Assembly: GCF_044324875.1 (NCBI RefSeq)
Contig: NZ_CP172185.1
Source: Escherichia coli
GTDB taxonomy: Bacteria > Pseudomonadota > Gammaproteobacteria > Enterobacterales > Enterobacteriaceae
DNA length: 64,000 nt
Reading direction: 5' to 3' (one strand)
A model generated the notes under the pieces. That model made no database searches, was not told where the DNA came from, and saw nothing but the letters and a program-made list of their open reading frames with translations. Every line of letters starts with the position of its first letter. Position 1 is the first letter of the stretch. Made by a program: the position numbers and the translations under genes. Below, piece by piece: positions 46,491 to 49,095 of this stretch.

Positions 46491-47982
<1,492 letters not shown>

Positions 47983-48010
47983 GCAGCTTTTGAAATGGCG
48001 AGACAGAATT

Positions 48011-48184
48011 TTACTGACTCGCCGCAGCCAACTCTTCTTCTGACACCCCGGTAAAACGCATGATGTCCGCAAGAGGGACTCCGGATTACAGCATTCTTTT
48101 GGCGATATCCGGGGCTTCCAGGCGTCGATCCAATAAATAACCAATCAGGTAACTAATAAGATATTCTCTTTCTGCATCTGTCAT
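48011..48184 (-). pseudogene. fragment resembling the RpnA C-terminal tail, interrupted by an in-frame TAA
   Basis: MTDAEREYLISYLIGYLLDRRLEAPDIAKRML*SGVPLADIMRFTGVSEEELAAASQ* aligns with the rpnA C-terminus [32 protein letters not shown]. Confidence 0.4.
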
Positions 48185-48201
48185 TAAAACCATCCTTTAC
48201 G

Positions 48202-49095
48202 TTATTGATGATTTATTTCAGCAAGGTCTTCAACCGTCAGGCTGGTAAATCGCAGAACGTCCTCAAGAGAGACTCCGGCATCCAGCATGGTTTTGGCAAT
48301 ATTTAGGGCGTTGGTACGTATACCTTTCTGAAACCCCTCTTGCCGCAATCTTTCCGCAATAGTCATTAAACTCTCCTTGTGTTTCGGTGAACGTTCGGCA
48401 ACACCGTCGATAAAATCGTTAAAACGTACCGCATCGCCAGTTTGCAGTATGTAATTAAACAGCCCTTTGATTTGTCTGTCATTAGCGTATCCACTACTTA
48501 ATAAGCAGGCCATTTGCTCTACCAGCCCCATCAGGTCGCGTTGACGAATATGTTTTTGAATTAACTCCAGTAGTGCCATACGTCGGTGCTGCATGATTTC
48601 ATCATCAGGCATGACGGTGACATCAATCAGCGGAAATGCAGAGGCATAAAGCTGCCTTGCCAGGTTGGGATCGGCGAAACAATCAAGCCAACACAGCGAA
48701 TAGGGATAGGGGCTTTCAATACCGTGGTAAAACAACAATGGCACCACCATCGGCAAGGTTTTGTATCCGGCATCCAGGTGATTTTGCATTGCGGCAATGG
48801 CGTAGCGCATCATGCGAAATGCGATCAGTTTGTTTGAGGTGCTTTGATGTTCAATCAGACAATAGATGTATCCTGGTCCTTGTTCCGTTTTCACCGACCA
48901 CAGCACGTCGGAATAGCTTTCACGCAGATCGTCATCAATAAAGCTGCTCGACTCCAGCTTGAGGGTTTTCATATCACAGAGCGCGTGAATAGGTGCCGGT
49001 AAATGGAACGCAAGAAAATCGCGCGCCGTCTCCGGTTGGCGTAAAAAGAGTTTGAACAGCGCATCGTGTGGGGTGGAACTCTGCTTTTTGCTCAT
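48202..49095 (-). CDS. rpnA: recombination-promoting nuclease, YhgA-like (Rpn) family
   Basis: 297-aa ORF with the YhgA-like N-terminal domain; position between bioH and feoC as for yhgA in K-12. Confidence 0.85.

What the first reader, a model, noticed from the sequence alone, without database searches (positions are those of the whole stretch)
48011..48184. Second, nonsense-interrupted copy of an Rpn C-terminal tail directly downstream of rpnA
18 bp after the rpnA stop, the same strand encodes MTDAEREYLISYLIGYLLDRRLEAPDIAKRML-TAA-SGVPLADIMRFTGVSEEELAAASQ. This aligns with the RpnA C-terminus ([32 protein letters not shown]) but is divergent. My recollection is that Rpn-family C-terminal tails are variable and have been reported to be expressed as small inhibitory proteins, so a spare tail cassette next to the gene could reflect past tail exchange or a decayed paralogue. 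That link is unverified here.
Basis: partly seen in the sequence, partly recalled or inferred. Interest (0 to 1): 0.45.

Follow-up and report, generated by a model that had tools for sequence, protein, structure and literature searches.

The report
Broken spare antitoxin cassette after rpnA
Right after the E. coli defence-nuclease gene rpnA sits a second copy of its small antitoxin-like tail module, inactivated by a stop codon; related alleles suggest the K-12 version of rpnA got its present tail by fusing onto a cassette of this kind.

Summary
On the minus strand, 17 nt (not 18) after the rpnA stop, an AAGGA Shine-Dalgarno-like site and an ATG open a 57-codon frame (48184-48011). It duplicates the whole RpnA-S module and carries an in-frame TAA at codon 33.

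It is the nonsense-inactivated orthologue of an intact 57-aa gene (Pfam HTH_Rpn_C). That gene lies at the same place in loci whose protein clusters are labelled E. ruysiae, and in a few metagenome contigs.

Of 5,426 complete E. coli genomes, 853 have this two-cassette layout. At least 827 of those share the TAA, and no intact copy was found.

Most other E. coli carry a single tail. The K-12 rpnA 3' end equals a two-cassette allele minus 206 nt, deleted between GGG(G) microhomologies. So the K-12 RpnA tail, the one crystallised as 7TH0, most likely derives from this downstream cassette. Heads and tails are also shuffled in E. whittamii and E. albertii.

The kind is already published: "RpnSs" genes downstream of rpnE and rpnC, and their loss by fusion (Zhong et al. 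2023). This is a new member of a known kind and of moderate interest.

The parts
48202..49095 (-). rpnA CDS, 297 aa (RpnA-L). PD-(D/E)XK / Transposase_31 core plus the in-frame tail ...[43 protein letters not shown].
   Evidence: ORF list. Pfam PF04754 E=2e-91. NCBIfam RpnA equivalog 675 bits. Annotated rpnA in the strain whose 219-bp spacer is identical, VCSW5.
48202..48366 (-). Cassette 1: the RpnA-S module inside rpnA. Internal start at M244, 54 aa, with SD AAGGAG at 48378-48373.
   Evidence: Sequence. The internal start at M244 was shown experimentally for K-12 rpnA by Zhong et al. 2023. Here it is inferred by homology.
48185..48201 (-). 17-nt spacer between the rpnA stop and the cassette 2 start. 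Contains the SD-like AAGGA (48197-48193), 8 nt before the ATG.
   Evidence: The block SD+ATG+MTxAER is 82% identical to the block in front of RpnA-S.
48011..48184 (-). Cassette 2: pseudogene of a free-standing RpnS-type gene ('rpnA-Ss'). 57 codons including an in-frame TAA at codon 33, plus the final TAA.
   Evidence: Intact orthologues at the same locus. PGAP marks it as pseudo ('transposase; internal stop; missing N-terminus') in strain AH19E045; a 'transposase' feature also lies under the match in other records.
48086..48088 (-). Nonsense codon TAA (codon 33). It is CAA in the E. ruysiae-labelled loci, GAA in K-12 rpnA and in contigs L013/L020, and TAT in P0001/P0002.
   Evidence: 827 of the 853 two-cassette complete E. 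coli genomes hold an exact 28-mer or longer spanning the TAA. None has the CAA or TAT version.
48089..48184 (-). Residual 32-codon ORF (MTDAEREYLISYLIGYLLDRRLEAPDIAKRML). It corresponds to helix 1 only.
   Evidence: The AlphaFold2 model of the repaired protein has helices at 3-33, 38-45 and 49-56. 32-aa products are called in many assemblies (P0019, P0021 and others).
48119..48166 (-). Helix-1 segment with 4-residue periodicity (EYLI SYLI GYLL DRRL). One 12-nt unit longer than the matching part of cassette 1.
   Evidence: Protein alignment with 4-aa gaps. Repeat spacings of 194 versus 182 nt. Copy number of YLISYLLDR units varies in E. albertii. TRF does not call it a tandem repeat.
48011..48127 (-). 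Part of cassette 2 (codons 20-57 plus stop) that corresponds to codons 255-293 of K-12-type rpnA, i.e. 3' of the 206-nt deletion junction.
   Evidence: The K-12 tail is 90.7% identical to this segment and 72.9% identical to cassette 1.
47212..47982 (+). bioH, convergent neighbour. Its stop codon bounds the 219-bp spacer (28 bp in K-12-derived S17-1).

Best explanation
The feature is a pseudogene of a free-standing second RpnS-type (HTH_Rpn_C) small-protein gene, here called rpnA-Ss.

Origin (shown by sequence comparison). It arose by tandem duplication of the 3' module of rpnA: SD, internal start and the three-helix tail domain. Afterwards its helix-1 region diverged.

Intact form. The gene encodes a 57-aa protein. 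It is predicted (not shown) to fold like RpnA-S, with a long dimerisation helix followed by a short helix-turn-helix. By analogy with RpnE-Ss/YpaA and RpnC-Ss (inferred), it would be co-transcribed with rpnA-S and act as an extra or alternative partner for the tail of the toxic nuclease RpnA-L.

In this window. A TAA at codon 33 (a single C-to-T change if the ancestral codon was CAA) ends translation at the end of helix 1. Helices 2-3 are lost, so the copy is most likely non-functional.

Locus history. The same cassette supplies replacement tails. In most other E. coli, a 206-nt deletion between GGG(G) microhomologies joins rpnA codon 254 to cassette codon 20. That deletion gives the K-12 RpnA tail and removes the spare copy. 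This follows from allele comparison, but the direction of the event is inferred. The window therefore carries the un-fused, decayed state of a locus whose tail modules are repeatedly reshuffled.
For: Duplicate of the whole module, with its own SD and ATG.

Family membership:
- NCBIfam RpnA model, E=4.9e-11.
- PDB 7TH0 (RpnA-S), E=4.4e-12.
- Precomputed Pfam PF27070 HTH_Rpn_C on the intact orthologues.
- AlphaFold2 model with pLDDT 83 and three helices. Its top Foldseek hit is 7TH0.

Intact orthologues at the identical position, between rpnA and bioH: loci whose proteins are labelled E. ruysiae, L008-L012, and contigs L013, L020, L102, L103.

Shared nonsense mutation:
- All six sampled two-cassette E. 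coli genomes carry it.
- 827 of 853 such complete genomes carry it.
- No intact variant was found.

K-12 allele as a deletion derivative:
- Deleting 206 nt from L020 reproduces the K-12 sequence with 4 mismatches in 178 nt (alignment).
- All six sampled single-tail loci share the junction.
- At least 3,555 genomes match a 60-nt K-12 junction query over 80% or more of its length.

Module shuffling elsewhere: E. whittamii-like L100/L022 and E. albertii.

Published precedent: RpnSs genes downstream of rpnE and rpnC, and their loss by fusion (PMC10400941).

Selection: rpnA core and RpnA-S region have pN/pS 0-0.09, against 0.2-1.5 for cassette 2 (small counts).
Against: - There are no expression or activity data for any rpnA-Ss copy, intact or not.
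- The intact orthologues themselves show a high pN/pS (0.73 for L011 versus L008). They may be drifting ORFs rather than working genes, or they may be under diversifying selection.
- The key intermediate allele, L020, is a single 6.6-kb metagenome contig at about 5x coverage.
- The K-12-type junction also occurs in the E. whittamii type strain. Alleles therefore cross species lines, and the order of events is not fixed by phylogeny.
- Helix 1 of cassette 2 is three-quarters hydrophobic. This differs from the 'one hydrophobic plus three charged or glycine' repeats described for RpnS, so its partner may not be RpnA-L at all.
- The 32-codon ORF with its SD is intact in every sampled genome, so a residual role cannot be excluded.
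Confidence: 0.82

Rival explanations
1. The truncated 32-aa product (helix 1 only) is a functional micro-protein. For example, it could be a dimerisation-helix decoy that tunes RpnA-L/RpnA-S pairing, and the TAA could be an adaptive shortening rather than decay.
For: - The ORF, its SD and its ATG are intact in all sampled two-cassette genomes.
- The TAA allele is nearly fixed: 827 of 853.
- In RpnA-S, helix 1 is the dimer interface and sets specificity (PMC10400941).
- The stop falls exactly at the end of predicted helix 1.
Against: - Every substitution seen in codons 1-32 among the TAA-carrying E. coli genomes compared with the window (L003, L004, L007) is non-synonymous: S11I, D19G, P25L. 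This is not the pattern of a conserved peptide.
- No expression data exist.
- Near-fixation is equally explained by shared descent.
Confidence: 0.1
2. Reverse polarity. The single-tail K-12-type gene is ancestral, and the window layout arose when a foreign tail segment was inserted into it. That segment would be the EINHQ tail plus the start of a neighbouring small gene. On this view the 3' part of 'cassette 2' is simply the displaced original rpnA end.
For: - The last 135 nt of the spacer are ~91% identical to the functional rpnA end in about 4,500 genomes.
- The K-12-type junction also occurs outside E. coli, in E. whittamii.
Against: - The downstream copy has its own SD/ATG/MTxAER block, homologous to the RpnA-S start. 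A tandem duplication predicts this; a displaced end does not.
- Two-cassette layouts occur in the E. ruysiae-labelled loci and in the E. whittamii-like contig. The cassette-2 head survives in E. albertii.
- An allele with the cassette-2 head plus the K-12 'EQSKALH' segment exists (L020). It yields K-12 by one microhomology deletion. The reverse event would need a precise 206-nt insertion.
Confidence: 0.08
3. The spacer is kept for a non-coding role, such as a terminator or 3' UTR for the convergent rpnA and bioH transcripts or a small RNA. Its coding-like appearance would then be incidental.
For: A hairpin (47997-48023) encloses the final stop codon and is also present at the K-12 rpnA end.
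Against: - The consensus scan finds no terminator or promoter.
- There is no credible Rfam match.
- The fold energy is no better than that of shuffled sequence, z=-0.32.
- K-12-derived S17-1 has only 28 bp here.
- Protein-level homology is highly significant.
Confidence: 0.03

Closest known systems
[quoted passage not shown]
   Same: - A second, separately encoded copy of the RpnS tail module lies directly downstream of its rpn gene on the same strand.
- It derives from that gene's own tail.
- It is variable in the helix-1 repeat region.
- It can be lost by deletion or by fusion to the rpn N-terminal domain. K-12 rpnA appears to show exactly this.
   Different: - It is attached to rpnA, which the paper's main text does not list as having an Ss copy (the SI could not be read).
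- Here it is interrupted by a stop codon. YpaA, by contrast, is translated.
- Helix 1 is dominated by Y/L/I rather than charged or glycine residues.
RpnA-S, the intragenic antitoxin of RpnA (PDB 7TH0)
   Same: - 86% identical over the last 35 residues.
- Same predicted three-helix architecture.
- Same MTxAER start and same SD context.
   Different: - RpnA-S is translated from inside rpnA and necessarily shares its sequence with RpnA-L. Cassette 2 is a separate frame, with a different helix 1 from the RpnA-L of its own strain.
- The comparison suggests the crystallised K-12 RpnA-S is itself a chimera: cassette-1 start plus cassette-2 body.
Stand-alone RpnS-like proteins annotated DUF4351 (PF14261) or HTH_Rpn_C (PF27070)
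   Same: The intact orthologues carry PF27070 in the precomputed annotation.
   Different: - The window copy is truncated.
Silent-cassette variation systems (e.g. pilE/pilS gene conversion in Neisseria; from my own knowledge)
   Same: A non-expressed, partial or variant copy next to an expressed gene supplies alternative sequence for a variable, interaction-determining domain.
   Different: - There is one cassette, not a library.
- The documented event is a deletion that consumes the cassette, not a non-reciprocal conversion that keeps it.
- No dedicated recombination signal was seen.

Membership tests
RpnSs (free-standing RpnS-type / HTH_Rpn_C small protein downstream of an rpn gene) | Significant sequence homology to the C-terminal tail (RpnS) of Rpn proteins | tested here: met
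   BLASTP E=2e-11 and 2e-19. NCBIfam RpnA model E=4.9e-11. 7TH0 E=4.4e-12.
RpnSs (free-standing RpnS-type / HTH_Rpn_C small protein downstream of an rpn gene) | Separate frame immediately downstream of, and on the same strand as, an rpn gene, with its own ribosome-binding site and start codon | tested here: met
   The ATG lies 17 nt after the rpnA stop, with AAGGA 8 nt upstream. The block is homologous to the RpnA-S start region.
RpnSs (free-standing RpnS-type / HTH_Rpn_C small protein downstream of an rpn gene) | Three-helix bundle with a long first helix (the RpnA-S fold) | tested here: inconclusive
The window's actual ORF stops after helix 1 and cannot form the bundle.
RpnSs (free-standing RpnS-type / HTH_Rpn_C small protein downstream of an rpn gene) | Variation by four-amino-acid (12-nt) repeat units in helix 1 | tested here: inconclusive
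   There is a 12-nt register difference from cassette 1 and 4-aa gaps in the alignment. E. albertii varies by 9-aa YLISYLLDR units. Residue composition is unlike the published repeats, and TRF finds no array.
RpnSs (free-standing RpnS-type / HTH_Rpn_C small protein downstream of an rpn gene) | Complete open reading frame that is translated | tested here: not met
   There is an in-frame TAA at codon 33, shared by at least 827 genomes. Translation of the remaining 32 codons cannot be tested here.
RpnSs (free-standing RpnS-type / HTH_Rpn_C small protein downstream of an rpn gene) | Binds the cognate RpnL and blocks its toxicity or nuclease activity | not testable with these tools
   This needs SOS-reporter, growth or pull-down assays like those of Zhong et al. 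2023.
Unitary pseudogene (decayed orthologue) | Intact orthologue at the syntenic position in related genomes, plus a disabling mutation here | tested here: met
   Intact 57-codon genes lie between rpnA and bioH in L008-L013, L020, L102 and L103. The window has TAA where they have CAA, GAA or TAT.
Unitary pseudogene (decayed orthologue) | Relaxed selective constraint relative to neighbouring genes | tested here: inconclusive
   pN/pS is 0.2-1.5 for cassette 2, against 0-0.09 for the rpnA core and RpnA-S region and about 0.1 for bioH. Counts are small (3-18 substitutions), and the intact orthologues are also fast-evolving.
Programmed silent-cassette variation system | Donor cassette is retained after it supplies sequence (non-reciprocal conversion), with repeated switching | tested here: not met
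   The K-12-type allele is a 206-nt deletion that removes the spare copy. Mosaic alleles such as L013 and L100 show exchange between lineages, but not switching within a strain.

The most novel reading that the evidence does not exclude
The tandem tail cassettes at rpnA may form an adaptive 'spare part' system. The downstream cassette would store an alternative helix-1/HTH module. Microhomology deletion, or homologous exchange between lineages, could swap that module onto the nuclease and so re-key RpnA-L/RpnA-S pairing specificity, for example under pressure from phage counter-defence. RpnA's own RecA-independent recombination activity might drive the swaps. On this reading the K-12 tail, the whittamii-like tail and the B2 tail are successive outcomes of the same process, and the TAA copy is a silenced reserve rather than junk.
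Probability: 0.2. Interest if true: 0.6.

Novelty: new member of a known kind. Interest (0 to 1): 0.35.

Why it matters
RpnA is the reference member of the Rpn toxin-antitoxin and phage-defence family. Its small antitoxin RpnA-S is the only one with a crystal structure (7TH0).

This comparison suggests the K-12 tail is most likely a fusion product of a once-separate downstream cassette. It also shows that about one in six complete E. coli genomes, including the type strain DSM 30083, UTI89 and E2348/69, carry a different in-frame tail plus a silenced spare copy.

Two consequences follow:
- Results on RpnA-L/RpnA-S pairing obtained in K-12 need not transfer to those strains.
- The locus offers a natural series of head and tail chimeras for testing what sets pairing specificity.

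It does not reveal a new kind of system.

Tried and rejected
- The consensus promoter/terminator scan of 47850-48700 found nothing.
- The Rfam scan gave only a sub-threshold chance hit. The RNA fold of the spacer was no better than shuffled sequence. A structured-RNA reading was dropped.
- The local Pfam library gave no hit for the 57-aa or 54-aa peptides. PF27070 appears only in the precomputed annotations.
- TRF found no tandem array in the YLI-rich head.
The ancestral state could not be polarised on a species tree.
- Searches for intact alleles in complete E. coli genomes were all negative. These used the CAA and TAT versions of a 41-mer and the L008-, L013- and L020-type cassettes. 26 of the 853 two-cassette genomes remain unresolved.
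- No supplementary files of Zhong et al. are held. A search of the bioRxiv version failed on a term that was too short. Whether an rpnA-Ss is mentioned in the SI is therefore unknown.
- The pN/pS value for the rpnA core against L008 is invalid because an indel shifts the frame, and it was ignored.
- Chance similarity and a chimeric-assembly origin for L020 were considered. A chimeric assembly is unlikely because only about 4 nt are shared at the junction, but it cannot be excluded.

Full report
**What is in the window**

The window is E. coli chromosome. The local gene order is nfuA, gntX, bioH (+, 47212-47982), rpnA (-, 48202-49095), feoC and feoB. The 219-bp bioH-rpnA spacer is 100% identical to that of strain VCSW5.

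On the minus strand the rpnA stop codon (48204-48202) is followed by 17 nt that contain AAGGA. Then comes an ATG at 48184 that opens MTDAEREYLISYLIGYLLDRRLEAPDIAKRML-TAA-SGVPLADIMRFTGVSEEELAAASQ-TAA, ending at 48011. The only corrections are that the gap is 17 nt rather than 18, and that an upstream in-frame ATG gives a 35-codon mechanical ORF.

**Is the similarity real?**

Yes. With the stop read as a sense codon, the peptide gives these matches:
- This strain's own RpnA-S: 46% identity over 39 aa, E=2e-11.
- K-12 RpnA-S: 86% over 35 aa, E=2e-19.
- The NCBIfam RpnA equivalog model: E=4.9e-11 over its last 35 positions.
- The crystallised RpnA-S, PDB 7TH0: E=4.4e-12.

Two direct repeats show up within the window's own DNA:
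- 48025-48115 versus 48219-48309: 91 nt, 73% identity, spacing 194.
- 48167-48188 versus 48349-48370: 22 nt, 82% identity, spacing 182.

The second repeat covers TTTAATGACxxxxGCxGAAAGA. This is the end of the ribosome-binding region, the ATG and the first codons (MTxAER) of RpnA-S. The duplicate is thus the complete RpnA-S module with its translation start, not just the distal tail. The two spacings differ by 12 nt, which is one four-residue unit in helix 1 (see also the alignment).

**What the module is**

Zhong et al. 2023 (PMC10400941) showed the following:
- Every E. coli rpn gene has an internal start (M244 in RpnA).
- That start produces a small protein, RpnS, which is the antitoxin of the toxic full-length nuclease RpnL.
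- RpnA-S is a dimeric three-helix bundle whose long first helix carries hypervariable four-residue repeats that set pairing specificity.
- Some rpn genes (rpnE with ypaA; rpnC in some strains) are followed by a second, separately encoded copy, 'RpnSs'.

The main text names no Ss copy for rpnA. The supplement is not held.

**Intact orthologues exist**

A search of the large protein collection found 57-aa proteins that are 84-96% identical to the repaired peptide. All carry the precomputed Pfam domain PF27070 (HTH_Rpn_C). At the window's TAA they have Q, E or Y.

Their genes lie at exactly the same place, 17 nt after rpnA and before the convergent bioH. This holds for L011/L012, whose protein cluster is labelled E. 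ruysiae; for L008-L010, whose cluster is labelled E. coli but differs by one residue from an E. ruysiae-labelled cluster; and for the metagenome or read-assembly contigs L013, L020, L102 and L103.

An AlphaFold2 model of the repaired protein (pLDDT 83) has helices at 3-33, 38-45 and 49-56. Its best PDB match is 7TH0. The window's stop at codon 33 therefore cuts the protein at the end of helix 1 and removes the helix-turn-helix part.

**Population picture**

Counts are from 5,426 complete E. coli genomes.
- 853 carry the full two-cassette spacer. They include UTI89, E2348/69, strain 042 and the type strain DSM 30083.
- All six that I read carry the same TAA.
- A 41-mer that can only hit if the TAA core matches exactly found 827 of the 853.
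- The CAA and TAT versions found none.
- No complete genome matches the intact L008-, L013- or L020-type cassettes closely.
- PGAP leaves the region unannotated, or calls it a pseudogene ('transposase; internal stop; missing N-terminus' in AH19E045). A 'transposase' feature also lies under the match in a few other records.

**Relation to K-12**

In K-12-derived S17-1, rpnA is 292 aa and ends 28 bp from bioH. Its tail...RQEG-EQSKALHIAKIMLESGVPLADIMRFTGLSEEELAAASQ, compares as follows:
- 90.7% identical at the DNA level to the window's cassette 2.
- 72.9% identical to cassette 1.
- 97-98% identical to the cassette 2 of contigs L020 and L013.

Contig L020 has the two-cassette layout with a cassette 2 that reads MTDAEREYLISYLIGYLLG-EQSKALHIAKIML... 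Deleting 206 nt from it, between GA(A/G)GGG|TTT in cassette 1 and TTGGGG|GAA in cassette 2, reproduces the K-12 sequence with 4 mismatches in 178 nt.

All six single-tail loci I sampled share this junction. At least 3,555 genomes match a 60-nt junction-spanning K-12 query over 80% or more of its length.

Hence the K-12 RpnA tail, and the RpnA-S of 7TH0, is most simply a fusion of the rpnA body to the downstream cassette. This is the kind of loss-by-fusion the 2023 paper mentions in general terms.

The direction is inferred. It is supported by three points:
- Cassette 2 has its own SD and ATG.
- Two-cassette layouts occur in the E. ruysiae-labelled loci.
- The cassette-2 head survives in E. albertii.

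Two caveats apply. L020 is a single low-coverage metagenome contig. The K-12-type junction also occurs in the E. whittamii type strain, so alleles move between lineages.

**Further mosaics**

- An E. whittamii-like contig (L100) has a third in-frame tail (HRQG-VQQG-VQQG-RRLEALD-IAQTMLKAGIPHEDIILFTSLTMEELKEIIH). This is followed by a downstream copy with a cassette-1-type head and an AAASQ tail.
- L013 combines a B2-like cassette-2 head with a K-12-like 3' part, and its frame is open.
- E. albertii keeps only a gutted rpnA fused to a cassette-2-type module, with one to three YLISYLLDR units.
- Among 65 evaluable Rpn loci from other Enterobacterales, 12 have a same-strand tail-like copy within 500 nt downstream.

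Tandem tail cassettes and their reshuffling are therefore a family trait.

**Selection**

Between the window and the E. ruysiae-labelled locus L011:
- The rpnA core has pN/pS 0.02.
- The RpnA-S region has 0 non-synonymous and 2 synonymous changes.
- Cassette 2 has 7 non-synonymous and 4 synonymous changes (pN/pS 0.55).

Between the window and the TAA-carrying genomes L003, L004 and L007, all changes in codons 1-32 are non-synonymous. The counts are small. They fit relaxed or diversifying evolution of cassette 2 and give no sign that the residual 32-residue peptide is conserved.

**Rivals**

- A functional helix-1 micro-protein cannot be excluded, but nothing supports it beyond the intact ORF.
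- An insertion origin (reverse polarity) is less parsimonious.
- A non-coding role is not supported: there is no terminator or promoter, no RNA family and no unusual fold.

**Verdict**

The element is best described as the nonsense-inactivated rpnA member of the published RpnSs class.

The added point is that comparison with other alleles suggests the K-12 reference tail descends from this cassette. It is a new member of a known kind and of moderate interest.

Noticed in passing
L022 2001-4180; L100 1-660: In E. whittamii Sa2BVA5 and in a related metagenome contig, rpnA is split near codon 215 by an IS200/IS605-type element encoding a 376-aa TnpB-like protein. Despite the same insertion, the two differ downstream. 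L022 has the K-12-type fused tail. L100 has a third tail type plus a downstream cassette.
   Followed up: partly
L021 2501-2737 (E. albertii CP034212.1): rpnA is reduced to codons 42-69, fused directly to a cassette-2-type module. Related E. albertii proteins differ by 1, 2 or 3 copies of a 9-residue YLISYLLDR unit (P0014, P0013, P0012).
   Followed up: partly
window 48295-48330 (rpnA codons ~256-267) versus L004, L013: The in-frame RpnA tail itself is polymorphic by 12 nt / 4 aa. It reads ...[11 protein letters not shown]... here (297 aa) and ...GIRAIAK... in E2348/69 and L013 (293 aa). This is the four-residue repeat-type variation described for RpnS.
   Followed up: partly
window 47997-48023: An inverted repeat, GGCGAG...CTCGCC, encloses the final stop codon of cassette 2. 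The same hairpin sits at the K-12 rpnA stop. It could serve the convergent rpnA/bioH transcripts, but it has no T-run and the terminator scan did not call it.
   Followed up: partly
L102 2001-2174 (P0001); P0002: Two metagenome-derived alleles very close to the window's have TAT (Tyr) where the window has TAA and the E. ruysiae-labelled loci have CAA. This looks like a secondary re-opening of the frame. None was found in complete E. coli genomes.
   Followed up: partly
L023-L099 (Photorhabdus, Xenorhabdus and others): 12 of 65 evaluable Rpn-like loci carry a same-strand copy of their own tail within 500 nt downstream. These copies often differ in the number of (E/Q)(E/K)G(R/I) four-residue repeats.
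   Followed up: partly
L009 200-1460: In one of the loci with an intact downstream cassette, IS fragments (HTH_28 and rve_3 hits) lie between feoC and rpnA.
   Followed up: no
window 47212-47237: The longest gntX frame (TTG start at 47237, 248 aa) overlaps the start of the divergent bioH by 26 nt. RefSeq annotates a shorter 227-aa gntX.
   Followed up: no
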